Assembly (NCBI GenBank): GCA_049514855.1
Contig: JBEKUR010000003.1
Location: forward strand, 12,768-76,767
Direction: 5' to 3'
Length of the DNA stretch: 64,000 nucleotides
DNA from: Terriglobia bacterium
GTDB lineage: Bacteria > Acidobacteriota > Terriglobia > UBA7540
Below are positions 13,287 to 56,091 of this stretch, piece after piece. Position 1 is the stretch's first letter, and each line of letters begins with the position of its first letter. Made by a program: the position numbers and the translations under genes. The notes below the pieces were generated by a model, which saw only the letters and a program-made list of their open reading frames with translations, was not told the origin of the DNA and did not search any database.

Positions 13287-13990
13287 GAAGTTATCCCCCT
13301 CCGATGGAAACTGGACAAAGCTGGCCGTTGTGTTCTTTCAGCCCCTGAGGGAATTGGCCTTATAGCTCTAGTGTCCTGAGCCACAAGTAAGCTGACAAAG
13401 TCTTCCCGTTTCGGATAGCCGTTCTGTAGCCCCGACAGGGGCGAAAGATCGTAGCCCAGGGCGCCAGCCCTGGGGGAAGGAGCCCTCACGCCGTCCCGCA
13501 GAGCGGGACACCCCTTTCCCGCCCGCGCGGGAGAGGGGACGGGGGAGAGGGAAGGTTCGCATACCCATCCCGCGGGACCGTGGGCTATCCTTTTTCGCCC
13601 GCTTCGTGGGCTGACTTCATCAACGAACTTCTGACTCAGGACACTAGCAGCACGCGCAGCGAAATATTGTATAGGCATGTGTCCATTTAAAGTCAATAAG
13701 TGCGAGCGTTTCTATACGATAATATACGAATAGTCGTAGCGAATAAAACAGAGACGTGCTGTCTTGTCCAAAAAATTCAATTCTTTTTGTTACCTCTCCC
13801 TGTAAACTGCATTTATGCGGATGAGGCCAGGGAGATGCCACACGACGAAGGGAACCGGAATGCTTGGTTCGAAATGCGCAAAGGAATCGGTAGTTGTCAC
13901 GAACCCCTCGTAAGGGCCCCAAGGAGGATTACCATGCCATGGTTTTGCCTCCTCGGGCCGCACAAAGCAAACCGAAAACTGAGGTGAACC

Positions 13991-25883: not shown

Positions 25884-27647
25884 ATGCAGCTCATAAGAAT
25901 TCGTAGCATGCTTATCGCAAGTGCCATAGTCCTAATTGCGCTCGCCACACCTGTCTTTTCGCAGACGGCGGCGGACAACTCGTCGAAAGCGTCGAAAGCC
26001 CCCGCCGATGTCTCGTTGCTCAAACAGCAGGTTGCAGAACAACAGAAAGAGATCGAGCAGTTACGTGCAATAGTGGACCAGATGAAACAAAAGCTGGACC
26101 AGTCCTCTAACCCGGCGCAAACCGCAACCACGCAAGCGCCGAACCTCGGGCAGGTGGCCTCGACCAGCCCAATGGTTCCCAAGGCCGCGGAGAAATCCAC
26201 CGCGGGTAGCGACGGGAATCTGATTGCTTCCACCTTGATCCCCTCCGCCGCGGTACGTTCGGCAACGCCGGCGCCCGCTCCGAAGGAGGGGGACCAAGCC
26301 TCACCCCTTCAGTTCCACATCGGCAGCGCGTCCATTACCCCTGTTGGGTTCATGGATTTTACCAGCGTCTGGACCAACCATGACGCCGGCGGCGCTATCG
26401 GGACGAGCTTCGGCAGCATCCCTTACGGCAATGTATGGCAGAACAATCTGAGCCATATCGGTCTCAGCATGCAGAACTCCCGCATCGGCTTTCGCGTGGA
26501 TGCGGACGTGAAAGGCGCTCACGTGATCGGCTATATGGAGGCGGACTTCCTAGGGAACAATGCCTCGAACTACGCTGTGAGCAGCAACAGCAACACGATG
26601 CGGTCGCGGTTATACTGGGTCGATCTTCAAAAAGGAAAGTGGGAAGTCCTGGGTGGCCAAACCTGGAGCTTAATCACTCCGGGCCGCAGTGGCATTTCAC
26701 CTTTGCCGGCTAATCTCTTTTACACCCAAGACACCGACGTGAACTATCAGCTCGGCTTGTTTTGGGGGCGCATCCCGGAACTTCGGTTTGTGTACCATCC
26801 CTCCAAGAAGGTCGCCTTTGCCGTTGCTCTTGACGACCCGGAGCAGTACGTCGGAGGTTCGGGAGGCGGCGGCGCCCCCACCTTCCCGTCGGCTCTCACC
26901 TCCACCTATCCTGGCGCAGAACTTGACAACGGCAGCACGGGCGCGAGCGCCCCGAACCTTGCCCCCGATGTGATTGCAAAGTTGGCTCTCGATCCTTACA
27001 AGCAGGTTCACTTCGAGATCGGCGGAATCGAGCGCAACTTCAAAGTCTGGTATCCCGGCGTCGCTGCCGTCGCTGCCACCTCTACTACCCCTGCCGTCGC
27101 TGCCATCCCTGCCAGCACTTTCTCGGCAGCGGGTGGTGGCGGTTTCCTGAATCTGCACGTGGAACTCTTCAAGGGCTTCCGCGTGGTGACGAACAATTTC
27201 TTGAGCGACGGCGGTGGACGCTACATCTACGGCCAGGCTCCGGACCTGATCGCGCACGCCGACGGCAGCATCTCCCTCATCCACGCCACTTCCACGGTTT
27301 CAGGCTTCGAGTACACACATAAGAAGACAATGATCTATGCCTACTACGGCGGCCTTTACATCGGCCGGAATGTCGCCATCGACACCAACGGCAAGCCGGT
27401 AGGCTACGGGTACACCGGTTCGGCGGCCGGTCAGAATCGGGCCATTCAAGAAGCGACTTTCGGCTTCAACCAGACTATCTGGAAGGATGCGAAGTATGGC
27501 GCGCTGAACTTCATGGGCCAGTATTCGTACCTCACGCGTAGTCCCTGGTACGTGGCATCCGGACAGCCCCCGAATGCGAATATAAACATATTGTTCTTCA
27601 ACTTGCGCTACACGCTGCCGGGCTCTGCTCCTACGATTGGTCATTAA
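25884..27647 (+). CDS. putative outer-membrane beta-barrel porin with N-terminal coiled coil
   Basis: Signal peptide, heptad region 'LLKQQVAEQQKEIEQLRAIVDQMKQKLDQ', then a long alternating Gly/aromatic beta-strand-like sequence. GGAGGA SD. Confidence 0.6.
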   Translation: MQLIRIRSMLIASAIVLIALATPVFSQTAADNSSKASKAPADVSLLKQQVAEQQKEIEQLRAIVDQMKQKLDQSSNPAQTATTQAPNLGQVASTSPMVPKAAEKSTAGSDGNLIASTLIPSAAVRSATPAPAPKEGDQASPLQFHIGSASITPVGFMDFTSVWTNHDAGGAIGTSFGSIPYGNVWQNNLSHIGLSMQNSRIGFRVDADVKGAHVIGYMEADFLGNNASNYAVSSNSNTMRSRLYWVDLQKGKWEVLGGQTWSLITPGRSGISPLPANLFYTQDTDVNYQLGLFWGRIPELRFVYHPSKKVAFAVALDDPEQYVGGSGGGGAPTFPSALTSTYPGAELDNGSTGASAPNLAPDVIAKLALDPYKQVHFEIGGIERNFKVWYPGVAAVAATSTTPAVAAIPASTFSAAGGGGFLNLHVELFKGFRVVTNNFLSDGGGRYIYGQAPDLIAHADGSISLIHATSTVSGFEYTHKKTMIYAYYGGLYIGRNVAIDTNGKPVGYGYTGSAAGQNRAIQEATFGFNQTIWKDAKYGALNFMGQYSYLTRSPWYVASGQPPNANINILFFNLRYTLPGSAPTIGH

Positions 27648-28184: not shown

Positions 28185-28271
28185 GTCATTCCCGCGAAAG
28201 TGGGAATCTACTCGGCAAACCTTCGGGGATGCGCTGTCGACGGGCTGGATTCCCGCTTTCGCGGGAATGAC
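28185..28271. repeat. REP doublet (REPIN-like): two inverted 'gtcattcccgcgaaag.gggaatc' hairpins
   Basis: 28185-28208 and 28247-28271 are reverse complements with 1 mismatch. Each is itself a hairpin (attcccgc/gcgggaat). A third related copy lies at 9995-10019. Confidence 0.7.
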
Positions 28272-28329: not shown

Positions 28330-28592
28330 CGTCACGGATGGCCCCCCGTTTCCCGGTCACCATCTCGCGTGTAATGGAATCGATCAAGGTGGGCTCTACT
28401 CTTGGCATCAATGCGGGCAGAGGAGAGCGGGGCCTTCTCTGGCAGCCGCGATTTTTCGACCGCGATCTGCGAGGCGTTAAGGAATATTAGGAGAAAGTGG
28501 AATACATTCACCTCAACCCAGTGAGGGCCGACCTCGTCAAACGCGCCGAGGAGTGACAGTGGTCGAGTGTGCATGTTACACGGGAGGCCTGA
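28330..28592 (+). pseudogene. C-terminal half of a RAYT/IS200-like transposase with in-frame stops
   Basis: 'ISRVMESIKVGSTL...LLWQPRFFDRDLRGVKEY*EKVEYIHLNPVRADLVKRAEE*QWSS'. Stops are a TAG at 28488 and a TGA at 28554; the TGA sits where the conserved Trp (TGG) is expected. Confidence 0.7.
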
Positions 28593-28711: not shown

Positions 28712-31700
28712 CTATTTCCCCTCGAGTTTCTCTTTGAGTTCTTTCAATAGCGCCCTGCTCCTATCGTCGAGCGGGTTTGTTTGGACGGCAGCCTGGGCCA
28801 TCTCAAAGGCTTGCGCGATCTCGTTTTGCTGATAAAGAAGACGGGCAAGCCTGTAATACGCCATGAAGTTGTTCGGGTCTGCCTCGATCGCTTTGTTGTA
28901 GTACTCTTCAGCTTCTGCCAAGTACCCTTGTTTCTCACGCAACCGCCCGAACTCAGCTAGGCTCGGGGAATGGTCGGGCTTGACTTCCAGAGCCTCGTCA
29001 AGCAATTGTTCGGCCTCAGCCAATTTGTCGGCCCGTATTTTTGCTGCTGCGTAGCCCTGCAACATTCGAGGAGTCCTTGGACGCAGCGTTATAGCCTTGC
29101 CAAAGTGGAGCTCCGCATCATTCCATCTCTTTCTGCGCGCATATATCAGCGCCAAGTGAAAGTGCGCGTCTGCATCCCTATCGTCAATCTCTACAAGAAC
29201 TCTATAGTCCTTTAGCGCTGCTTCTAGGTCTCCCTTGCGGTAGTGTTGTACAGCAACAGGTTTAAGCTCCTCTTTGTAAAATGAAACTTGTTGGAACCGC
29301 TGTCTGTCCCCTGCCGCAAGGTAATGATGAACGGCTTCACCCAAGAATTCGGGCACTATTCTCCTGTTCGTCTTCCGTTCCTTATCGAGCAACCCGTTGT
29401 AAAACCTGCCGGCTACTCGGTGGAATTCCGTGGCTTGGGCAATCGGGAGGTTATAGTAATAGAACTCTCGCACCAACGGGTGCAGCAGGTAACCGTCCTC
29501 AGAACTCTCAATCAAATACTGACTGACAAGCGAATTGAGCAAATCGTTGGCTTCTTCACCTCTCCAACTTCGGAATAGTTCCCTTGGCCCTGGGAGGCGC
29601 AGAATTGAGGCGAATGACATTAGTTCAAACTCGACGGGCGAGAGGGACAGCTTTTCCAGAATGAACGGCACGATTGTTTCCCGCAATTGTTTGAACAACA
29701 ACGAAATGTCACTGGAAATGTCTTGCGAGGGATGGTCTGCCCAAAGCCGGGCCGCAACTTTGGTGGCCAACGGATGCCCGCCCAAGACGGACAAAAACTT
29801 GTCAGAAGGAGCCGGAGGCTGCGCGCCAAGGCTTTCGTGTTGGAATTGAAACCAGTAAATCAGTAGTCTCTCGGTGTCAAGCCGCTCAAGCCCCTTTACA
29901 CCATAAGGAGGAAAACAACGAGCTTCGAACTCCAGGCCCAACCTCGGCGCGACATTTGAAATAAAGAGATACTTGCTCCTCGACCTATCAGCTCCTTCGA
30001 CAAGGCGATGCAGGAAACGCCTCACTGCGGGATCCTCGAATTCGCCAATCGGATTGAGTAGGTACTGAAAATCGTCCAGAACGATGACTGCAGCCGGCCC
30101 CGTGGAAAGGTACGACAAAATCTGCCGCTCGAACTCGGCCTGTCTGTCTGGGTCAGACAAGTCGGATCCTTCCGGGAGCTGGAGGTTACATGCGTATGCC
30201 AATTCAGCTGAGAGCCGAGAATACGAGGTACCTTCTGTGAGTTGAATTCGGAGCCTGCGCCAATGAGGAGGGATTACCTGGCGAAAGGCCTCCTGCATAA
30301 GCGACGACTTTCCAATTCCTCGCATCCCACTCAGAATGAAAGCTGCGTTCTGATCCTGGCCGATAAAGGTACGGATTCGGTCTAACGCATGTTGCCTGTC
30401 CAAGAAAGGCAGTTTCGCTGCCCCTGTGACTATTTCGAGGTCGCCCTGCTTTGGAGTTATCCGTTCGGTTTTTTCCCGCGGCGGAACGAGTTGCATGATC
30501 TCGTTGCGCTTCACTATTAGGTGACCGTAGACCTCTAGCAGCTCCTTGGTTCTTGTAACGAACTTTCCTGAGACTTGTAGTTCATTAACCACGTCAATTG
30601 CTCGATTGCAGAGTTCGAGCCGGACCCTGCCTGTCGACGGAGTATCGGCAACCACGATTGGCCTAATCCAATCGGAACCCTCTTGTGTCGAAACAACCCC
30701 GGACGGGACTATGTGACCTGTGAAATGCTGAAGCTTGCTTTGGAGCAGTTTGGGAAACACATTTGGTGTGAGATTCGTAAAGGGAGCGACTATGCCGCAC
30801 AATTCGTGTAAGGTAGACTTTTTAGAAGTGCTTGGTTGTGTGACGTCTGCATACTGCGCCGCTTCGGCCGAGTCCAATGCATACAAGGTCGGATAAACCC
30901 GCAAATCAGATACCGCGGTGTGCTCTTTGGTGGATTTCCTCACTTCGAATTGCCTCTCCAAGTCCGCCTCCAAGATGAGAAGCGCCTCGGAGGACTGAGG
31001 AATTGCGGAGCTTCCATCCACCTCTGTGTACCAGAGGCTAGTGTGTTCAGTCCTCGCAAAGGCTCTTGACCCACCGAATTCTGCGACGTTTGCCAGAAGG
31101 GTGCACTTCCCTTGCCCTAGAGCTAATCGGCCAAAGTCGTAGAAGGGCTCACAGGATGGTGTAAATGCTGGAATTGCGATCACTTGAGGGTAGGGATGTT
31201 TTTCCTTGACGCTCCTGTTATCGAATGCTTCGATGCAAATAAGGATCTGCACCTGGACAATTCCAGCCTTGGCATTCATCTCAAAACTGTGGAAAGCTGG
31301 AGTCCCAGGGATCAGACACGCTTCCCACTTGGATCTGACATACTTCACGAATGTTTTTGGGCCCTGGCCTGGCAACAACACCACACAAATAGCCTGACGG
31401 ACCTTTTCATCGAGTTCCCCGGGTGGGGTCGGCTGCAAAGAGACCAACCCTAGCTCCTGATAGGCCTTTCGGGCACTTGGATTAAGCGTAACGACGTGGC
31501 TCCCGGCAACCGTTACCAGTTTCAGCTCCTCGCACAGTTTCTGGCACATCGGTAATGATTCGGGCGGAACGGAGTATTCAGGGAAAACGAGAAGCTCGGC
31601 ACCGAGCGCTGCCGCGAAGCGCATGAAGGCTTCCAGCTTCCGATTCAGGTGGGTTATGTACTGCTCTGAGATTTGCTGCCGGAGGTTATTCACTTCTTCA

Positions 31701-31843
31701 ATTCCGGCGATCCTGAACAACCCAACCTTCTGGTCCTTCTCGGGAAAAGCTGGCTCCTGAATGCAAGCAACAAGCTCATCCGAGTAGGCAGGATTGGCTG
31801 AGATTTGAGCAACCGCGAGTCGGCATGAAAAGGGCTTAGCCAT
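28712..31843 (-). CDS. CN-hydrolase (nitrilase superfamily) - STAND/NB-ARC-like P-loop NTPase - TPR fusion protein
   Basis: 1043 aa. 'LLVFPEY' (E89), 'VRSKWE' (K172) and 'LICIEAF' (C203) have nitrilase-like spacing. Walker A 'GMRGIGKSS' (506-514), Walker B 'VIVLDD' (586-591), 'GGHPLA' (688-693). TPR-like repeats span ~835-1030. Sampled lines gave 42-52% GC. Confidence 0.85.
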   Translation of the reverse strand: MAKPFSCRLAVAQISANPAYSDELVACIQEPAFPEKDQKVGLFRIAGIEEVNNLRQQISEQYITHLNRKLEAFMRFAAALGAELLVFPEYSVPPESLPMCQKLCEELKLVTVAGSHVVTLNPSARKAYQELGLVSLQPTPPGELDEKVRQAICVVLLPGQGPKTFVKYVRSKWEACLIPGTPAFHSFEMNAKAGIVQVQILICIEAFDNRSVKEKHPYPQVIAIPAFTPSCEPFYDFGRLALGQGKCTLLANVAEFGGSRAFARTEHTSLWYTEVDGSSAIPQSSEALLILEADLERQFEVRKSTKEHTAVSDLRVYPTLYALDSAEAAQYADVTQPSTSKKSTLHELCGIVAPFTNLTPNVFPKLLQSKLQHFTGHIVPSGVVSTQEGSDWIRPIVVADTPSTGRVRLELCNRAIDVVNELQVSGKFVTRTKELLEVYGHLIVKRNEIMQLVPPREKTERITPKQGDLEIVTGAAKLPFLDRQHALDRIRTFIGQDQNAAFILSGMRGIGKSSLMQEAFRQVIPPHWRRLRIQLTEGTSYSRLSAELAYACNLQLPEGSDLSDPDRQAEFERQILSYLSTGPAAVIVLDDFQYLLNPIGEFEDPAVRRFLHRLVEGADRSRSKYLFISNVAPRLGLEFEARCFPPYGVKGLERLDTERLLIYWFQFQHESLGAQPPAPSDKFLSVLGGHPLATKVAARLWADHPSQDISSDISLLFKQLRETIVPFILEKLSLSPVEFELMSFASILRLPGPRELFRSWRGEEANDLLNSLVSQYLIESSEDGYLLHPLVREFYYYNLPIAQATEFHRVAGRFYNGLLDKERKTNRRIVPEFLGEAVHHYLAAGDRQRFQQVSFYKEELKPVAVQHYRKGDLEAALKDYRVLVEIDDRDADAHFHLALIYARRKRWNDAELHFGKAITLRPRTPRMLQGYAAAKIRADKLAEAEQLLDEALEVKPDHSPSLAEFGRLREKQGYLAEAEEYYNKAIEADPNNFMAYYRLARLLYQQNEIAQAFEMAQAAVQTNPLDDRSRALLKELKEKLEGK

Positions 31844-32065
31844 ATATGAAACCTCTTATAGTGCAGGCGACCCTCTCGTTCCTTGGTCCCCGCCACACAA
31901 CGGATTCTACTTTGAGCTTAGACGAAAAGCGAAAGCTTATTTACCGTCCACGCAGAGAGGAATGCGGGCGCCTGCAAGTCGGGTTTGTTTGATCGGCAGA
32001 GGGGGAGCGGTTGCCCGCCGTCCCGTCCCACACCGCCGCACGTAAGGACCACGTATACGCGGGAG

Positions 32066-32359: not shown

Positions 32360-32700
32360 TTTAGATCTACTCGAATGGGTCTTCGGTTTGTTGATTCAGG
32401 CCGCTTCCGGCACGACCGGTGGCCGTGGCGTTCTCTGGACAAAAAGCTCCGGGTGAGCCTCGAAGGCTGCCGACAAGGTTAGCTTGCGTACCTGCGTGAC
32501 GGCTTCGACTTCCCCGCCATGGACCATGGCCGCTGTCATCAGCCCGACGCCGCCGTGATGGTGCGCGGTGTTGTACCAGGAAAAGAACGCCTGGCACAAG
32601 CCCCGACCATCTTGAACCCGAATTCGGAAACTGAGAGGCTCCGTTCCGTCCCAATCCGTTGGGCTGAGGTCGCTTCGACTAAACCTGCCCAGGAACGGAA
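32360..32700 (-). pseudogene. decayed IS3-family (rve integrase) transposase C-terminal fragment
   Basis: 'CQAFFSWYNTAHHHGGVGLMTAAMVHGGEVEAV...HPELFVQRTPRPPVVPEAA*INKP'. The stop is a TGA where the conserved Trp of 'AAWIN' is expected. The upstream part is frameshifted and decayed. Confidence 0.7.
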
Positions 32701-33150
32701 CAGTGCGGCTGACAATTGCTTCACCCTGGGCTTCGAGCTTCTCCCAAGCAACCCCTCACCCGCCCTCCTTCGTCGGGCACCCTCTCCCCGCGGAGAGGGC
32801 TGGCGTCGAAAGCACATCGGATACCGGCCCTCTCCGTTGGGGAGAGGGTGGCGATCCCGCAGTAGCGGGAGAGCCGGGTGAGGGGTCTTTTCCCTTCCAG
32901 TGAGCCTGCGAGTCCCGTCCAACTTGCGAATTCGGGTTGAATCGAGCCGAAGCCCTCCGGGAGCTGGGGCCGGCACTTCAGCCTCTTGAACTGACTTTCC
33001 GAGAACAGGTTGTGCGTGGATTCCTCCCGTCCCGCAAGGCGGGAGGACGGGAGGACGGGAATGACCCCTGGGGCAGGCGCGCGTGCCTCCCTTGCAGGGC
33101 TGAAACGGACTCTGTGTCTCTTGACATGCGGCACACGATAGGCTAGGATG

Positions 33151-33903
33151 GTGAGTGGGGAAGAACAGGATTCAGGAGTCAGGAGTGAGAATCAACACCA
33201 TCTGCTTTCCGCCTTCTGCCTTCTGCTTTCTGCCTTCTGCTTTCCGCCGACTGCCCTCTGCCTTTGAAGGGCCGCAGGTCCGGAGAGCGGGACCTGCGCT
33301 ACACCCGCTTACTGCCGACTGCACTTGAGGGAGGCGGGATGGAGAGCGTTCTTCGCAGGCATGCCAGCCCTGGACAAGATGTCACCTCCGACAGTGAAAG
33401 AAAAAACTAGTAACTTTAAAAAGTGAACGAACTAAGCGGGGATGTCCATGAAAACAAAGGACCGGGCTTCAGCAGCCCGGGGAGAAGCTGGAATGTTGCA
33501 GAAAAAAAAGGTAGTTACGCGTCGAAAGCGGGAATGTTGGTGAAAAGAAAGGAGATAGGTTGTAGGTGGGGAAGAACAGGTTCCAGGTGTCAGGTGTCAG
33601 GTGTCTGGTAGGCGGTAGGTGGGGAAGAGCAGGTTGCAGGTGCCAGGCGTCAGGTGTCTGGCAGGTGGTAGGTGGGGAAGAGCAGGTTCCAGGTGTCAGG
33701 TGTCAGGTGTCTGGTAGGCGGTAGGTCGTAGGTGGTAGGTGGGGAAGAGCAGGATTCAGGAGTCAGAAGTCAGGAGTGAGCATGACGAGCATCTGCTTCC
33801 CGCCTTCTGCTTGCTGCTTTCTGCGCTCCGCTTTCTGCCTTCTGCTTACTGCCGACTGCCTACTGCTGTGGTAGGCGGTAGGTCGTAGGTGGGGAAGAGC
33901 AGC
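33151..33903. repeat. ~750-bp nested repeat field
   Basis: 'gt(a/g)(g/a)gtggggaaga(a/g)cag' anchors at 33151, 33562, 33615, 33668, 33735 and 33885 (53-nt period x3). CAGGAGT/CAGGTGT and CTGCYTT heptamer arrays. A ~115-135-nt module occurs twice (33151-33264 and 33735-33868). Confidence 0.85.
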
Positions 33904-33938
33904 GGACAGGTTGGAGAGGAGCGGCGGCTCGTCGCTAC

Positions 33939-34028
33939 GTTCTCCCCACGCGCGTGGGGATGGTCCGCCATCTGCGTAATCTGCGTAATCTGCGGATTAG
34001 TTCTCCCCGCTTACGTGGGGGTGACGCT
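33939..34028 (+). CRISPR. orphan mini-array: two type I-E-like 29-nt repeats and one 32-nt spacer
   Basis: R1 'GTTCTCCCCACGCGCGTGGGGATGGTCCG' (33939-33967). Spacer 33968-33999. R2 'GTTCTCCCCGCTTACGTGGGGGTGACGCT' (34000-34028) has a degenerate 3' end. No cas genes in the window. Confidence 0.55.
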
Positions 34029-37396: not shown

Positions 37397-39409
37397 TTAC
37401 CCACCCATGTTGACCCTGACAGTCGCCCGCGCCCCACTGCTTACCGTGAAGGTGCCTTCATAAGGCTCCCACCCCTGACGCCTGACCGTGTATTTGTGGC
37501 TTCCGGCGGCCACGGTAACTCGCACCGGGCTGGGACCTATCAACTTCCCATCAATCAACACTTCTAAGCCGGGCGGCGTGGTGATGACAAGGACTTCTCC
37601 GCTCGCCTCCGAAAGCTGGGCGTTGACCGTGGCGGTTTTCCCCCCTTCGATGGTTACGGACTGCTGGTAATCACCGTACCCCTCTTTTGAAACGACCACT
37701 TGGTGAGTGCCGGCGGGGCGGTTGATCGTGGACGAGTAAGGGGTGACCCAATCAGGTTCGCTGCTGCCATCTAGCGAAATCTTGGCCCCAGCGACATTCG
37801 CCGTGACCAGCAAATGGCCCATCTCGGGGGTCGCGCCAAGCCCTCCGCCACGGGCAGAGGGAAGGGGGGTCGCGCCAGGCCCTCCGCCACTGGCAGAGGG
37901 AAGGGGGGTCGCGCCGGGCCCTCCGCCACCGGGAGAGCGAACGGGAATCAGCCCAGATGTTCTGCTCTCTTTCGTGGAAGGCATCCCCTTGCCCGCAGCA
38001 GGTTTTTCCGCTAGGGTTTTGCTCGGCGGTTCGGGCGCTTGCGCAGGAAGGCTGGCGTTGACACTGTTAGTCTTCCCGCCCTCGATGGTGACCGCCTGCT
38101 GGTAATTATCGTAGCCCTCTTTCGAAACCACTACTTGGTGGGAACCGGCCGAAAGATCGGGAATAGTGCATGGTGTGACCCAATCAGGCCCGCTCTGACC
38201 ATCGACCGAAATCCGCGCCCCAGGAACGTTCGACTCGACGTGCAATTGCCCGACCGGGGGGCTGGCTACTTGTGGCTTCCCTTTATGGAGATAGAAGTAC
38301 CCTGCTCCCCCGAGGATTCCCAGGATTACAACGCCCAGCAGCGTCATGAGGGTCCAAACCACCGGCGAAGCATGCGGTATTTGGTAGGCCGGCGCCGACG
38401 CTATGACCTGTACTGGCGCTTGCCCGGGGGAAGGTTGTTGAATAGGCGCTATCCGAGCCGGTTCTGCCGGGGCGATGGGCGGCGTTGGACTCTCGACAGG
38501 TGTCGCCGCCGCACGCTCCAAGTCGGTGCTTTGCAGGGCCCGAGCCTTGAGGATCATGGTGGCGGAGGGCGCCGCCGGTCCCCCCAGGTACTTGAAATTC
38601 TTCAGATCATCCGCCAACTCCCGGCAAGTCTGGTAGCGCTCCTCGGGACTCTTAGCCAGGGCTTTGCAAATCACGTAGCTTAGACCCGGATGAATCGTGG
38701 CATCCAGTTCACGAGGCGGAATGGGGTTTTCGTTAATGATCTTATAAATGATGGTGGTAATGTTCTCTCCGCCGAAGGGCATTTCGCCGGTCACCAGGTC
38801 GTAAAGAATGATGCCCAAGGAAAAGATATCGGAACGGCCGTCAATCTGGCGTCCCTTGACCTGCTCGGGCGACATGTAATTGGGCGTGCCCAGGACTTGC
38901 CCGGCTTGGGTCATCCCCATAGACACCATCTTGGCTATGCCGAAGTCGGTCACTTTAACTAATCCATTACCAAGAACCATGATGTTGGCAGGCTTGATAT
39001 CACGGTGAACGATGCCGTTCTGGTGGGCGTGGTCCAGCGCATTGCACACCTGGCCGTACATGGGGATGATGGTTTCGATGGGAAGGATATTCTGGCCCTC
39101 GACCAGCTTCTCCAGCGATTTCCCCTCCAGGTATTCCATGATCAAGTAGAGGATGCCACTGTCTTCACCGTAATCGAAGACACTAACGATGTTGGGGTGG
39201 CTCAGCACGCCGGCCGCTCGGGCCTCGCGCTGAAACCGAGCTCTGAACTCCTGGAATTCTTGCGAAGTAAGACCTTCGGTAAGCATGGTCTTGATCGCAA
39301 CCTTGCGCCCGATGACCGGGTCAAAACCCTCATAAACTACACCCATAGAGCCGCGTCCCAACTCTCGTACAACCTGGTATCGGCCTGCCTTGGTCAGTGC
39401 GTCGGCCAT
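37397..39409 (-). CDS. Ser/Thr protein kinase with TM segment and three C-terminal PEGA-like domains
   Basis: 'LGRGSMGVVY', 'AIK', 'HRDIKPANIMV', 'DFGIAK', 'GTPNYMSPEQ'. Repeated '...VSKEGYDNYQQAVTIEGGKT' modules. Confidence 0.9.
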   Translation of the reverse strand: MADALTKAGRYQVVRELGRGSMGVVYEGFDPVIGRKVAIKTMLTEGLTSQEFQEFRARFQREARAAGVLSHPNIVSVFDYGEDSGILYLIMEYLEGKSLEKLVEGQNILPIETIIPMYGQVCNALDHAHQNGIVHRDIKPANIMVLGNGLVKVTDFGIAKMVSMGMTQAGQVLGTPNYMSPEQVKGRQIDGRSDIFSLGIILYDLVTGEMPFGGENITTIIYKIINENPIPPRELDATIHPGLSYVICKALAKSPEERYQTCRELADDLKNFKYLGGPAAPSATMILKARALQSTDLERAAATPVESPTPPIAPAEPARIAPIQQPSPGQAPVQVIASAPAYQIPHASPVVWTLMTLLGVVILGILGGAGYFYLHKGKPQVASPPVGQLHVESNVPGARISVDGQSGPDWVTPCTIPDLSAGSHQVVVSKEGYDNYQQAVTIEGGKTNSVNASLPAQAPEPPSKTLAEKPAAGKGMPSTKESRTSGLIPVRSPGGGGPGATPLPSASGGGPGATPLPSARGGGLGATPEMGHLLVTANVAGAKISLDGSSEPDWVTPYSSTINRPAGTHQVVVSKEGYGDYQQSVTIEGGKTATVNAQLSEASGEVLVITTPPGLEVLIDGKLIGPSPVRVTVAAGSHKYTVRRQGWEPYEGTFTVSSGARATVRVNMGG

Positions 39410-39805: not shown

Positions 39806-41116
39806 TCAGAGGACGCCGCCCGGCGCGAACGCCCCTATCAGAGCAACTTCCTCACTGATGCCGAGCATTTTGCACAGCAGCACGAAGAGTAGAGCACGCA
39901 GCTTCCTGTTCGCCTCGAAGTATTCCTTCACACCCTGAAGCTCTTTCCTCTCTGGGCGCCCATCGTAGTGCACCAAGTAGTTTCTGGTGTCTTCAACAGT
40001 TCGAACGAAATCCTCGGGTTTTCCACCGATATGGTCCCTCGTTTGCTCAGACAGTCCATCGAAGAGATTTTGAAGCCGCTGCTTGAATTCGTATTTGCCC
40101 CCGCGTTGTCGTCGATCAAAGATCTCAAGCGCTTGAGCCAGACCCAGGAATTCGGCCTGCAGGTTCATCCTGTTATCATAGTGGCTGGACACCGCGAAAT
40201 CGTACACAGGCTGGAATCTGTCGGCGTTGTCTAGCCAGGTCTTCACAACTGTAGCGGCCTGTGACTTGATAAGCGGGAAAGGCAAGCGTGTGGCAAAGCA
40301 TCTTTCCCTCTTACCGCCTTGGCACCTGGGCGAGCGGTAAATCTTGATGTCTCGCTCGTCCCGCCATGTCCTCAGCGTGCTCGGGTAGACAGGCCCGCCC
40401 GCCAGAAAGGCCAAGAGTTGCCTGCACAGTTGCAAGACCTGAAGGTACCACGCATAATCGCGCGGCACTGCGGGATCGACTACAAAATAAGCTCTGTGGA
40501 GTAAGCTCAATGACCTTGTTGCCTTGGCCTCCCATTGCACGCTGGACCACAAGGAAATTACAGCGTCGAGCGAGGCCACGTCTGCCTCAAAGACCTTCCG
40601 TGAGCGGTAGGGCAAGCGGAGCTCTAGTGGGTCTGTCGGTTCCAGAGGCACCGGTAGGAAATTGAAACCCGCGCTGAGCGGGTCGATGCCAAGCCATTCT
40701 TCGAGATGCGTGAACCCGACGTACATCGATTGGAACGTCAATGCGCGCTCGTCCGGGAAATGCTCGCCGACAAACAGGTTGCTTAATTGAACATTCGACC
40801 AGACCTGCACGTTCTCCGCATTGCCAGAGGCCATAGGAGACTCTACCGTCCCGAACAGGGTGCATTCTTCCCCCTCATCGCTGGTTCCTAGAATCAATGG
40901 TCTCCGGACGGGCGGCAACGGCCAGAGGATTTCCACGGAGTCCTCCTTGATGGGTCCTTGAAATGCCCCCATCAGTTCCAAGCGAATAGACTCCTCGGGG
41001 TTGTAATGGAGAATGCCGGGAAGTCTATTCCCAGGCTCGCCAGGAAGCCACCAGTATCCCCGTAGCTTAAACTCGTCCAGAAGCGAATGCTCGTCTGACA
41101 TGCGACCACTCCGCAT
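39806..41116 (-). CDS. ApeA-like HEPN-domain protein (putative RNase / abortive-infection effector)
   Basis: N-terminus 'LRGYWWLPGEPGNRLPGILHYNPEESIRLELMGAF' resembles ApeA_NTD1. C-terminal 'EDTRNYLVH' (39969-39986) is an Rx4H HEPN motif. Start at ATG 41116 or 41101. Confidence 0.65.
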   Translation of the reverse strand: MRSGRMSDEHSLLDEFKLRGYWWLPGEPGNRLPGILHYNPEESIRLELMGAFQGPIKEDSVEILWPLPPVRRPLILGTSDEGEECTLFGTVESPMASGNAENVQVWSNVQLSNLFVGEHFPDERALTFQSMYVGFTHLEEWLGIDPLSAGFNFLPVPLEPTDPLELRLPYRSRKVFEADVASLDAVISLWSSVQWEAKATRSLSLLHRAYFVVDPAVPRDYAWYLQVLQLCRQLLAFLAGGPVYPSTLRTWRDERDIKIYRSPRCQGGKRERCFATRLPFPLIKSQAATVVKTWLDNADRFQPVYDFAVSSHYDNRMNLQAEFLGLAQALEIFDRRQRGGKYEFKQRLQNLFDGLSEQTRDHIGGKPEDFVRTVEDTRNYLVHYDGRPERKELQGVKEYFEANRKLRALLFVLLCKMLGISEEVALIGAFAPGGVL

Positions 41117-41398
41117 TTTGGGTTTGACACAGGGATGTGGGCCCCGTGAGATCGTCCTCCATTCGGAACAGAGGGAATGACCATTATACCTCTTGGGCGA
41201 TTCCGCATCGCGTAGTGGCCGATCATCGCCCTGGCGAGGCCACACTTCTGACTTGGCGGCAATCCGTCTGTGATACGGTAGACTTCGAGCACAAGGCGAT
41301 GCGCCACCCCGCCAAGCTCACAAGAACCGCAGGACCGGACAGCGGGTCCTGCGCTACACCACCACGCTTCTCGACTTGGGCACTGAACCTCTACCCAC

Positions 41399-55968: not shown

Positions 55969-56091
55969 TGGGGATGGGCGATGGCCAAGAAACCGCAAGC
56001 CCCGCCAGGGGCGACATCACTTAGCCCATAGCGTCAGCTATGGGGATGGGCGATGGCCAAGAAACCGTAAGCCCCGCCAGGGGCGACATCA
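55969..56091 (+). repeat. 51-nt direct repeat x2 (period 72 nt)
   Basis: 'tggggatgggcgatggccaagaaaccg(c/t)aagccccgccaggggcgacatca' at 55969-56019 and 56041-56091. An inverted partial copy 'tgatgtcgcc' lies at 56123-56132. Confidence 0.85.

What the first reader, a model, noticed from the sequence alone, without database searches (positions are those of the whole stretch)
28712..31843. Candidate novel immune sensor-effector: CN-hydrolase fused to a STAND/NB-ARC-like NTPase and TPR array
This is a single 1043-aa ORF with no operon partner. The N-terminal ~290 aa carry the nitrilase-superfamily pattern: Glu in 'LLVFPEY' (E89), Lys in 'VRSKWE' (K172) and Cys in 'LICIEAF' (C203). Spacings are 83 and 31 aa, and the K-to-C distance is typical of the E-K-C triad. 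The central region has Walker A 'GMRGIGKSS', Walker B 'VIVLDD', and a 'GGHPLA' motif like the GLPL/GxP motif of NB-ARC STAND ATPases. The C-terminus (aa ~835-1030) is a run of TPR-like repeats. Effector-NTPase-repeat sensor is the layout of antiviral STAND (Avs/NLR-like) proteins. I know of no characterised member that uses a carbon-nitrogen hydrolase as effector. Sampled lines give 42-52% G+C against about 60% or more nearby. The gene is flanked by a dead RAYT plus REP doublet on one side. On the other side lie IS3 debris, a repeat field and an orphan CRISPR. Hypothesis: ligand binding by the TPR domain drives NTP-dependent oligomerisation, which activates an amidase that depletes or modifies an essential amide-containing metabolite.
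Basis: partly seen in the sequence, partly recalled or inferred. Interest (0 to 1): 0.85.

Follow-up and report, generated by a model that had tools for sequence, protein, structure and literature searches.

The report
Nitrilase-armed NLR-like STAND protein
This gene encodes a bacterial protein built like an innate-immune receptor (sensor repeats, ATP-driven switch, killing enzyme), and its enzyme is a nitrilase-type hydrolase so far known in anti-phage defence only from reverse-transcriptase systems, so it looks like an undescribed but widespread variant of a known immune design.

Summary
The 1043-aa ORF at 28712-31843 (-) is real and intact. Its three-part layout is confirmed: an N-terminal nitrilase-superfamily domain (aa 1-335), a STAND NTPase module (aa ~478-830) and about six TPRs (aa ~831-1043).

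Pfam CN_hydrolase does not hit the N-domain. The fold does: all 50 listed Foldseek matches are nitrilase-superfamily enzymes. A family profile also matches the nitrilase domain of the defence protein DRT1 (PDB 9yfd, E=4.5e-11). PADLOC's DRT/UG5/UG29/CARF-nitrilase models hit up to 34 of 36 relatives.

The conserved tetrad is E89-K167-E174-C203, not K172.

The N-domain family is large, with 713 clusters at 50% identity. It is patchy across phyla and is annotated publicly only as "hypothetical" or "TPR protein". The domain is shuffled onto different STAND clades and onto TPR or WD40 sensors. The gene has no conserved neighbour and is the lowest-GC stretch of the window.

Best reading: a single-gene NLR/Avs-like sensor in which oligomerisation assembles an active nitrilase. 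I rate it a new variant of a known kind. Function and substrate are untested.

The parts
28712..31843 (-). Complete CDS, 1043 aa plus stop: nitrilase - helical linker - STAND NTPase - TPR
   Evidence: ORF list and translation. Termini agree with homologs. Full-length AF2 model has mean pLDDT 85.2.
31852..31857 (-). Shine-Dalgarno-like AAGAGG, 8 nt upstream of the ATG
   Evidence: Read directly from the sequence. Function is inferred.
30839..31843 (-). N-terminal nitrilase-superfamily (CN-hydrolase) effector domain, aa 1-335, of the DRT1/UG5/CARF 'defence nitrilase' type
   Evidence: All 50 listed Foldseek matches are nitrilase-superfamily proteins; the best is amidase 6ypa, E=1e-7, TM 0.60 normalised to the target. 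Family profile against PDB hits DRT1 9yfd_A at E=4.5e-11. PADLOC DRT-nitrilase models hit up to 34/36 relatives. Pfam PF00795 is not hit by this protein and is hit only weakly by 11/36 relatives.
31235..31579 (-). Span holding the catalytic tetrad codons: E89 (31577-31579), K167 (31343-31345), E174 (31322-31324), C203 (31235-31237). It also holds the family-invariant H116 (31496-31498).
   Evidence: E89, H116 and K167 are invariant in 108/108 relatives, C203 in 107/108, and E174 is E/D in 108/108. K172 is conserved in only 67/108. E-K-E/D-C is intact in 81/82 proteins of 900-1150 aa. K, E and C align to DRT1 K1077, E1084 and C1116.
30476..30835 (-). Conserved all-helical linker domain, aa 337-456, with no known family
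   Evidence: No Pfam hit. Helices 337-450 are modelled with pLDDT ~82-94. An HMM of this region is found in 85 of 166 retrieved relatives, mostly the ~1000-aa class, and is absent from the checked giants of >=1,800 aa, though present in two longer proteins of 1,133 and 1,468 aa.
30413..30475 (-). Predicted disordered tether, aa 457-477, between the effector module and the NTPase
   Evidence: pLDDT <50 for residues 457-477 in the full-length model.
29354..30412 (-). STAND NTPase module (NBD, helical and winged-helix parts), aa ~478-830. Motifs: FLDR (R483), Walker A GMRGIGKSS (506-514, K512), Walker B VIVLDD (586-591), GxP GGHPLA (688-693), LHP (H788).
   Evidence: Pfam AAA_16 E=2e-8, nSTAND6 26.1-27.7 bits, weak NB-ARC. 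Profile A5 against PDB hits 6mfv_A (PH0952 STAND with TPR sensor) at E=9.8e-18, and plant NLRs Sr35, Roq1 and NRC1 at 1e-7 to 1e-4. R483, G506, G509, G511, K512 and G689 are invariant in 31 full-length relatives; D590 and P691 are conserved in >=90% of them. Foldseek top hit is 6mfv_A, followed by NRC2 and Apaf-1.
28715..29353 (-). C-terminal TPR sensor array, aa ~831-1043, about six repeats
   Evidence: Pfam TPR_2 E=1.2e-17, TPR_19, TPR_1 and others over residues 864-1040. Regular helix pairs run from 831 to 1042 with pLDDT mostly >90.

Best explanation
The gene encodes a stand-alone, horizontally acquired NLR/Avs-like conflict protein of an acidobacterium.

Proposed mechanism (every step inferred):
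1. At rest it is a monomer. The NTPase is nucleotide-locked, and the nitrilase domain is inactive because nitrilase-superfamily enzymes need homo-oligomeric contacts to complete the active site.
2. The short C-terminal TPR array binds a trigger, most likely a phage-derived protein, peptide or infection-associated ligand.
3. Binding releases autoinhibition, and the STAND module exchanges nucleotide and oligomerises.
4. Oligomerisation brings the flexibly tethered N-terminal nitrilase domains into dimers or tetramers.
5. The assembled enzyme uses the E89-K167-E174-C203 tetrad to cleave a non-peptide C-N bond in an essential molecule. That molecule is unidentified, as it is for DRT1.
6. The result is growth arrest or abortive infection.

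Shown here: the three domain identities; conservation of the catalytic tetrad and the NTPase motifs; specific kinship of the effector with DRT1/UG5/UG29/CARF nitrilases; modular shuffling of this effector onto different STAND clades and sensors; and the accessory, single-gene nature of the locus.

Inferred: immune role, trigger, oligomerisation-dependent activation, substrate and outcome.
For: Effector identity:
- All 50 listed Foldseek matches to the N-domain model are nitrilase-superfamily enzymes.
- The N-domain profile hits the DRT1 nitrilase at E=4.5e-11, with K, E and C aligned to K1077, E1084 and the catalytic C1116.
- PADLOC DRT and CARF nitrilase models hit 34, 31, 23, 12 and 9 of 36 relatives.
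- The tetrad is invariant across the family, which argues for an active enzyme.

Precedent for a nitrilase as defence effector:
- DRT1 needs its nitrilase and acts by abortive infection. Monomeric DRT1 is inactive and non-toxic, and assembly is required for nitrilase activity (PMC13275509).
- In UG5/DRT11, the nitrilase mutant C876A abolishes defence (bioRxiv 10.64898/2025.12.16.694600).

Switch and sensor:
- STAND motifs are conserved, and the profile matches PH0952 and plant NLRs.
- TPRs are present.

Modularity typical of immune NLR-like proteins:
- The same N-domain is fused to nSTAND6+TPR (L009), to nSTAND3+TPR (L019), and to a WD40 array preceded by a P-loop (Walker A) segment and pentapeptide-like repeats seen only by eye (L033, Sorangium). 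It also occurs in an 1871-aa giant-TPR protein that carries a P-loop (GSGKSS) not classified by Pfam (L027).

Accessory behaviour:
- The N-domain defines 713 clusters at 50% identity. About half of the best-scoring proteins share the full layout.
- The family is patchy across Acidobacteriota, Myxococcota, Bacillota, Nitrospirota, Planctomycetota and one archaeal MAG.
- There is no conserved neighbour and no synteny, even among the 58-61% identical acidobacterial copies.
- The gene is the lowest-GC segment of the window.
- Neighbourhoods contain type I RM, integrases, IS elements, CHAT-TPR, an MqsA antitoxin and DUF4062.
- In the window itself, an ApeA-like HEPN gene lies 8 kb away.
- Several copies are disrupted by stops, frameshifts or an IS insertion.
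Against: - There is no experimental evidence for defence, toxicity, oligomerisation or enzymatic activity.
- The window protein hits no Avs or other validated PADLOC model. It gets only weak P-loop hits, such as PDC-S27 at E=1.5e-4.
- Pfam CN_hydrolase does not recognise the N-domain.
- Association with defence genes was seen only qualitatively and was not tested against a background. Most neighbours are ordinary genes.
- The TPR array (~210 aa) is much shorter than the sensors of characterised Avs proteins, so the trigger may not be a large phage protein.
- The closest solved STAND (PH0952) has no known immune role.
- The family is rich in Myxococcota, where STAND proteins may serve developmental or kin-conflict functions.
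- I could not inspect model coordinates, so juxtaposition of the tetrad in 3D was not verified.
- No relatives were found in plasmid or phage collections by tblastn.
Confidence: 0.6

Rival explanations
1. A non-immune signalling STAND. The TPR array senses an endogenous metabolite or protein. NTP-dependent assembly then switches on a housekeeping or stress-related amidase (for example detoxification or nitrogen salvage) rather than killing the cell.
For: The closest solved STAND, PH0952 (6mfv), is a signal-transduction ATPase with no known immune role. The TPR sensor is short. Most neighbours are ordinary metabolic or transport genes.
Against: The effector is specifically related to defence nitrilases (DRT1, UG5, UG29, CARF) and only marginally to metabolic nitrilases, which score E>0.1 in the same search. 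There is no conserved metabolic operon partner in 22 loci. The distribution is patchy, the GC is atypical and copies are often disrupted. The effector is shuffled among STAND clades and sensors.
Confidence: 0.15
2. A programmed-cell-death or kin-conflict module not aimed at phages. It would be an NLR-like death switch used in social or multicellular bacteria, or against other mobile elements, with the nitrilase as executioner.
For: Many relatives are giant Sorangium/Polyangiaceae proteins, at least one with a WD40 array resembling Apaf-1-type architectures. CHAT-TPR caspase-like genes lie nearby in two loci. STAND conflict systems of multicellular bacteria are described in eLife 2020;9:e52696 (that paper does not mention nitrilase).
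Against: The ~1000-aa TPR class also occurs in unicellular Bacillota such as Halanaerobium, Desulfocucumis and Lachnospiraceae, and in Acidobacteriota. The effector's only experimentally characterised relatives are anti-phage.
Confidence: 0.15
3. The nitrilase-like domain is catalytically dead and serves only as an oligomerisation or scaffold domain, or the gene is a decaying remnant.
For: Pfam does not recognise the domain. Seven of 39 giant relatives have lost the Cys, replaced by S, G, Y or T. Several close homologs are disrupted.
Against: In the window protein and in 81/82 relatives of 900-1150 aa the E-K-E/D-C tetrad is intact. The window ORF is uninterrupted, with all NTPase motifs.
Confidence: 0.05

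Closest known systems
Nitrilase effector domain of class 3 UG/Abi reverse transcriptases: DRT1/UG1 (PDB 9yfd), UG5/DRT11 and UG29
   Same: Same nitrilase clade. The profile hits DRT1 at E=4.5e-11 with the K-E-C catalytic residues aligned, and PADLOC DRT nitrilase models hit up to 34/36 relatives. In DRT1 the nitrilase is the effector, needs assembly to be active, and its substrate is unknown.
   Different: This protein has no reverse transcriptase, no protein-primed DNA synthesis and no alpha-repeat domain. The nitrilase is N-terminal rather than C-terminal, and a STAND NTPase plus TPR sensor would control it. The DRT1 C-terminal lid that completes or occludes the pocket has no obvious counterpart, because a helical linker follows the domain here.
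Antiviral STAND (Avs) / bacterial NLR-like proteins (Avs1-5, Avs7, bNACHT)
   Same: Tripartite layout of N-terminal effector, STAND NTPase and C-terminal repeat sensor in a single-gene system. The effector is exchanged between clades, and the gene is accessory.
   Different: No PADLOC Avs model is hit. The effector chemistry (nitrilase) is not among those named in the main texts I could search. The sensor is only ~210 aa. No phage trigger is known.
PH0952 of Pyrococcus horikoshii (PDB 6mfv), a STAND NTPase with TPR sensor
   Same: It is the best sequence-profile match (E=9.8e-18) and the best structural match (E=4.2e-14) for the NTPase-TPR part. The match covers the GxP and winged-helix regions.
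   Different: PH0952 (653 aa) aligns only to the NTPase-TPR part of this protein and has nothing matching the nitrilase domain. Its biological role is unknown.
CARF_m7-nitrilase fusions (type III CRISPR ancillary candidates; PADLOC PDLC01989)
   Same: A related nitrilase domain (9/36 relatives hit, best E=1e-10) is coupled to a ligand-sensing domain in a defence context.
   Different: The sensor there is a cyclic-oligoadenylate-binding CARF domain rather than a STAND-TPR module. To my knowledge these fusions are also uncharacterised experimentally.
Metabolic nitrilase-superfamily enzymes (amidases, Nit2, N-carbamoylputrescine amidohydrolase, NAD synthetase glutaminase domain)
   Same: Same fold and same E-K-E-C chemistry.
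   Different: Sequence similarity is marginal: Pfam has no hit and PDB profile E-values are >0.1. The family has extra invariant residues (Q13, H116, N252, G257) and a 38-residue helix (aa 42-79) just upstream of the catalytic Glu.

Membership tests
Nitrilase superfamily (CN_hydrolase) | Alpha-beta-beta-alpha sandwich fold | tested here: met
   The AF2 model of aa 1-335 has pTM 0.78. Foldseek against PDB gives 72 hits at E<=0.001, and all 50 listed are nitrilase-superfamily proteins, best E=1e-7 and TM up to 0.62 normalised to the target. The full-length model gives the domain pLDDT mostly >90.
Nitrilase superfamily (CN_hydrolase) | Conserved catalytic Glu-Lys-Cys triad (plus second Glu) | tested here: met
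E89 and K167 are invariant in 108/108, C203 in 107/108, and E174 is E/D in 108/108. The residues align to DRT1 K1077, E1084 and C1116.
Nitrilase superfamily (CN_hydrolase) | Match to Pfam PF00795 at its gathering score | tested here: not met
   There are 0 Pfam families at E<=10 for aa 1-337. Only 11/36 relatives give weak hits, best E=0.0028.
Nitrilase superfamily (CN_hydrolase) | Triad residues juxtaposed in 3D, and hydrolase activity | not testable with these tools
   Model coordinates are not exposed. There is no biochemistry. Secondary-structure positions are as expected, with Cys at a strand-to-helix elbow (strand 194-200, helix 203-207), but this is only an inference.
Class 3 UG/Abi defence reverse transcriptases (DRT1/UG1, UG5, UG29) | Nitrilase domain of the DRT type | tested here: met
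   9yfd_A is hit at E=4.5e-11. RT_UG5-nitrilase hits 34/36, RTasNitrilase 31/36, RT_UG29 23/36 and Drt1a 12/36 relatives.
Class 3 UG/Abi defence reverse transcriptases (DRT1/UG1, UG5, UG29) | Reverse-transcriptase domain fused to or encoded next to the nitrilase | tested here: not met
   No RT family appears in Pfam for the protein or among the family counts for 109 neighbours. It is therefore not a DRT.
STAND NTPases (NB-ARC/AP-ATPase-like; Pfam nSTAND6) | P-loop with Walker A and B, the upstream hhGRE-type Arg, the GxP motif, and a winged-helix domain with conserved His | tested here: met
   K512 sits in GMRGIGKSS, D590 in VIVLDD, R483 in FLDR and G689/P691 in GGHPLA. R483, K512 and G689 are invariant and D590 and P691 are conserved in >=90% of 31 relatives. 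'LHPLVREF' aligns to the 'VHDMVREF' segment of PH0952.
STAND NTPases (NB-ARC/AP-ATPase-like; Pfam nSTAND6) | Significant profile or structure match to established STANDs | tested here: met
   6mfv_A scores E=9.8e-18; Sr35, Roq1 and NRC1 score 1e-7 to 1e-4. Foldseek gives 6mfv_A at 4.2e-14, then NRC2 and Apaf-1.
STAND NTPases (NB-ARC/AP-ATPase-like; Pfam nSTAND6) | Pfam nSTAND6 or NB-ARC at gathering score | tested here: inconclusive
   nSTAND6 scores 26.1 bits for the whole protein and 27.7 bits for the isolated module, against a cutoff of 27.7. NB-ARC scores 20.4-21.5 against 23.5. Relative L009 passes nSTAND6 at 28.5 bits, and L019 passes nSTAND3.
Antiviral STAND (Avs) defence systems | Effector-NTPase-repeat sensor architecture in a single gene | tested here: met
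   No conserved partner gene was found.
Antiviral STAND (Avs) defence systems | Match to a curated Avs or defence-system model | tested here: not met
   PADLOC gives only weak P-loop-level hits, such as PDC-S27 at 1.5e-4 and PDC-M16A at 1.5e-4. No Avs model is hit.
Antiviral STAND (Avs) defence systems | Enrichment in defence islands | tested here: inconclusive
   Type I RM components, integrases, IS elements, CHAT-TPR, MqsA and DUF4062 occur near several copies, and ApeA lies 8 kb away in the window. No background comparison was possible.
Antiviral STAND (Avs) defence systems | Experimentally shown phage protection and recognition of a phage protein | not testable with these tools
   This needs wet-lab work.

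The most novel reading that the evidence does not exclude
This is the founding example of an undescribed, widespread family of NLR-like immune receptors. The N-domain family has at least ~700 clusters at 50% identity across at least six phyla, and about half of the best-scoring members share the nitrilase-STAND-repeat layout. The executioner would be a nitrilase-superfamily enzyme switched on by induced oligomerisation, that is, a new effector chemistry for STAND immunity. Because the same nitrilase clade arms DRT1/UG5 and CARF fusions, where the substrate is unknown, these single-gene STAND versions would give a simple handle for finding what 'defence nitrilases' hydrolyse.
Probability: 0.4. 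Interest if true: 0.75.

Novelty: new variant of a known kind. Interest (0 to 1): 0.6.

Why it matters
STAND/NLR-like receptors and nitrilase effectors are each known in anti-phage defence, but I found no description of the two combined in the literature I could search.

Public records call these proteins only 'hypothetical' or 'tetratricopeptide repeat protein'. Neither Pfam nor PADLOC flags the window protein's effector. The N-domain family is nonetheless large and phylogenetically broad.

What defence nitrilases cleave is an open question stated explicitly in the 2026 DRT1 structure paper. A single-polypeptide system, where activation should reduce to trigger-induced or forced oligomerisation, would be easier to dissect than the filament-forming, DNA-adducted DRT1.

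The finding also adds an effector chemistry to the catalogue used to recognise immune STANDs. That would improve annotation of soil Acidobacteriota and Myxococcota genomes.

Tried and rejected
Searches that found nothing:
- Pfam on the isolated N-domain and on the linker gave nothing at E<=10.
- phmmer of the N-domain against PDB gave only noise.
- The 17-sequence profile against PDB gave only a non-significant formamidase hit at the FPEY motif, E=0.8. The hit to DRT1 needed the broader 36-sequence profile.
- phmmer of the NTPase module alone against PDB gave nothing. A profile was needed there too.
- tblastn of the N-domain against plasmid and phage collections gave no match.
- The promoter and terminator scan found no more than chance.

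Literature:
- No paper combining nitrilase with STAND, Avs, NLR or NACHT describes this fusion.
- The eLife 2020 conflict-system survey has no mention of nitrilase.
- The main text of the 2026 Nature STAND survey has no 'hydrolase' or 'amidase' (a library-wide search counted 0 occurrences of 'nitrilase' in it). Its supplementary tables are not held.
- Gao et al. 2022 (Science) is not held.
- Prior listing in a supplementary table therefore cannot be excluded.

Ideas considered and rejected:
- A two-gene split system. The split copies L003, L060 and L062 are better explained as frameshifted or disrupted versions of the fused gene. The frameshift was read directly only in L003; for L060 and L062 the interpretation rests on gene calls alone.
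- K172 as the catalytic Lys.
- Membership in DRT, because there is no RT.

Not verified:
- The 'IS3 debris' claim; ORFs at 32367-33134 have no Pfam hit.
- The 'orphan CRISPR' is only two imperfect repeats.

Full report
**1. The observation**

The window holds one uninterrupted ORF at 28712..31843 on the minus strand, 1043 aa with an ATG start. An AAGAGG site lies 8 nt upstream. The first residues (MAKPF.CR...AQIS) and the C-terminal end match those of homologs, so start and stop are right.

Pfam finds multiple TPR families over residues 864-1040 (TPR_2 E=1.2e-17). It finds a P-loop module at 483-616: AAA_16 at 2e-8, AAA_22 at 1.6e-7, nSTAND6 at 26.1 bits against a cutoff of 27.7, and NB-ARC at 3.4e-4.

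Pfam finds nothing in the first 337 residues even at E<=10.

**2. What the N-terminal domain is**

A word-indexed search found only 20 relatives, 40-63% identical, all metagenomic.

An AlphaFold model of aa 1-335 built on them (pTM 0.78) was compared with the PDB by Foldseek. It gave 72 hits at E<=0.001, and all 50 listed are nitrilase-superfamily enzymes. These include the amidase 6ypa (E=1e-7), Nit2, N-carbamoylputrescine amidohydrolase, the NAD-synthetase glutaminase domain, nitrilases and vanin.

An exhaustive HMM search with the domain profile found 713 clusters at 50% identity with E<=1e-3, and 430 with E<=1e-10.

In 108 full-length copies of the domain, the invariant residues are Q13, E89, H116, K167, N252 and G257. 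The catalytic set is thus E89-K167-E174-C203, the E-K-E-C tetrad of the superfamily. The spacings are 78, 7 and 29 residues.

A profile of 36 diverse members hits one PDB sequence significantly: 9yfd_A, 'Defense-associated reverse transcriptase 1', residues 1077-1218, E=4.5e-11. In that alignment K167, E174 and C203 fall on K1077, E1084 and C1116. C1116 is the catalytic cysteine named in the DRT1 structure paper (PMC13275509). Metabolic nitrilases in the same search score E>0.1.

Scanning the 36 members against PADLOC gives hits to RT_UG5-nitrilase in 34, RTasNitrilase in 31, RT_UG29 in 23, Drt1a in 12 and CARF_m7--CARF_nitrilase in 9. Pfam CN_hydrolase is hit only weakly, by 11 members, best E=0.0028.

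Conclusion: the domain is a divergent nitrilase-superfamily enzyme of the clade that serves as effector in class 3 UG/Abi defence reverse transcriptases and in CARF fusions.

**3. The rest of the protein**

A profile of the central module hits PH0952 (6mfv_A), a STAND NTPase with a TPR sensor, at E=9.8e-18 over 325 positions. That span includes the GxP and winged-helix regions. Plant NLRs follow: Sr35 at 1.9e-7, Roq1 at 3.4e-6 and NRC1 at 1.5e-4.

In 31 full-length relatives, R483 (FLDR), G506/G509/G511/K512 (Walker A) and G689 (GxP) are invariant, and D590 (Walker B) and P691 are conserved in at least 90%.

The full-length AlphaFold model (mean pLDDT 85.2) shows five parts:
- the nitrilase domain;
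- a conserved helical domain (337-450) of unknown family;
- a disordered tether (457-477);
- the NTPase module;
- about six TPR hairpins (831-1042).

Its best Foldseek match is again 6mfv_A (E=4.2e-14), followed by TPR proteins, NRC-type plant NLRs and Apaf-1.

**4. Family, distribution and context**

Among the best-scoring relatives, about half are 980-1150 aa with a Walker A at residues ~450-540. That is the same architecture as the window protein.

In one genome per species, 56 loci were found:
- five acidobacterial MAGs at 58-61% identity;
- Holophagales, Bryobacteraceae, Nitrospirae, Planctomycetes and a Halobacteria MAG;
- Halanaerobium kushneri, Desulfocucumis palustris, Lachnospiraceae and Oscillibacter;
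- many Sorangium/Polyangiaceae chromosomes.

The same N-domain heads different chassis:
- nSTAND6+TPR (L009);
- nSTAND3+TPR (L019);
- a long WD40 array, preceded by a P-loop (Walker A) segment and pentapeptide-like repeats seen only by eye in the sequence (L033, 2327 aa);
- an 1871-aa protein with a giant TPR array and a P-loop (GSGKSS) that Pfam does not classify (L027).

The tetrad is intact in 81/82 proteins of 900-1150 aa. Seven of 39 giants have lost the Cys.

No neighbour is conserved. Among 109 genes flanking 22 loci, the commonest Pfam family (Radical_SAM) occurs five times. Clustering finds no shared neighbour, even among the close acidobacterial copies.

Neighbourhoods do include the following:
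- type I restriction-modification genes, integrases and SWI2/SNF2;
- IS3, an integrase and Peptidase_M78 (L003);
- CHAT-TPR genes (L001 and L060);
- an MqsA antitoxin (L062);
- a DDE transposase inserted within the gene, and DUF4062 (L063).

Several close copies carry an in-frame stop, frameshifts or splits. Some of these may be sequencing errors.

In the window, the gene is the lowest-GC 3.1-kb stretch: 52.3% against 58.6%, with GC3 of 58% against 65-80%. It sits between a decayed RAYT/REP remnant and a repeat-rich non-coding stretch. An ApeA-like HEPN gene lies 8 kb away.

Public records name relatives only 'hypothetical protein' or 'tetratricopeptide repeat protein'.

**5. How it most likely works**

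The architecture is that of NLR/Avs-type receptors.

The DRT1 study shows three relevant things. This nitrilase type acts as a defence effector. Nitrilases require homo-oligomeric assembly for activity. Monomeric DRT1 is neither protective nor toxic. The UG5/DRT11 preprint shows that the nitrilase Cys is essential for defence.

The most economical model is therefore this. The TPR array binds a trigger. The STAND module undergoes NTP-dependent oligomerisation. The tethered nitrilase domains assemble, and the active enzyme hydrolyses an essential C-N-bonded molecule, giving growth arrest.

Only the anatomy and the homologies are shown. Every dynamic step is inferred. I put this at about 0.6.

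The rivals are a non-immune signalling amidase (0.15), a cell-death or kin-conflict module not aimed at phages (0.15), and an inactive or scaffold domain or decaying gene (0.05).

**6. Comparison with the known, and novelty**

It is not a DRT, because it has no RT. It is not a member of any curated Avs model.

It works like an Avs/NLR, with an effector borrowed from the DRT/CARF repertoire. I found no paper describing a nitrilase-STAND fusion. The DRT1 paper states that nitrilases are not common in anti-phage systems.

I therefore rate it a new variant of a known kind, with interest 0.6. It is not a new principle. It is a sizeable unannotated family that could make the open question of the defence-nitrilase substrate more tractable.

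Noticed in passing
window 13428-13474 (-) and 55998-56044 (-): Two copies of the Acido-Lenti-1 sRNA motif (Rfam RF01687, 46.2 and 41.8 bits against a gathering score of 37). Together with the closest homologs being in Terriglobia/Acidobacteriota MAGs, this suggests the window comes from an acidobacterium. That genome is not in the GTDB-representative or protein collections, where the best protein match is 56-61% identical.
   Followed up: partly
window 39806-41245 (-): ApeA-like defence gene. Pfam gives ApeA_NTD1 at 4.5e-31 and HEPN_Apea at 3.7e-14; PADLOC gives PDC-S58 and Cas13-ApeA. It lies 8 kb from the STAND gene.
   Followed up: partly
window 37397-39409 (-): Ser/Thr kinase with three PEGA domains and a CarboxypepD_reg domain. 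It hits PADLOC PD-T4-6 models very strongly (E=9e-104 over nearly the whole 510-position profile). This could be a kinase-type defence gene or just generic kinase homology. Kinases also lie near the homologs in L001 and L005.
   Followed up: no
window 33140-33910: Non-coding repeat field. It has 53-nt tandem units (3-4 copies, 88-97% identical) built from CAGGTGT-like heptamers, flanked by CT-rich heptamer runs (TCTGCCT) that are roughly their reverse complement. GC skew reaches +0.35 here.
   Followed up: no
window 33939-33962 and 34000-34023: Two palindromic 24-nt repeats (GTTCTCCCCACGCGCGTGGGGATG and a copy at 79% identity) with a 61-nt period, reminiscent of type I-E CRISPR repeats. There is no third copy and no cas gene in the window, so at most this is a remnant.
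   Followed up: partly
window ~28190-28270 and ~28440-28570: REP-like inverted repeats (ttcccgcgaaagtgggaatc / gattcccgctttcgcgggaatg). Next to them is a decayed RAYT/IS200-like C-terminus (WQPRFFDRDL..*..YIHLNPVRADLV..*..WSS) with two in-frame stops, immediately downstream of the STAND gene.
   Followed up: partly
window 25884-27647 (+): A 587-aa ORF with normal GC3 (71%) but no Pfam or PADLOC hit. Function unknown.
   Followed up: no
L001/L002 9329-12460; L003 10001-13158; L060 10001-13415; L062 10001-13140; L063 5524-10536: Many close homologs are disrupted. One has an in-frame stop five codons before the catalytic Cys, and the same stop appears in contigs from two samples. Others have frameshifts or splits into 2-3 gene calls, and one has a DDE transposase inserted between the NTPase and TPR parts. 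This could be recurrent pseudogenisation of a costly gene, or partly long-read assembly errors.
   Followed up: partly
L019, L027, L032, L033, L058 (Sorangium/Polyangiaceae and other giants): In 7 of 39 relatives longer than 1150 aa, the catalytic Cys is replaced by S, G, Y or T while E, K and E are kept. These may be inactive or decoy versions of the effector domain.
   Followed up: partly
proteins P0062, P0064, P0073, P0099, P0107, P0112, P0117 (590-646 aa): A class of ~600-aa relatives carries the nitrilase domain but has no Walker A motif, and six of the seven lack the helical linker domain of the window protein (P0117 has a weak partial match).
   Followed up: no
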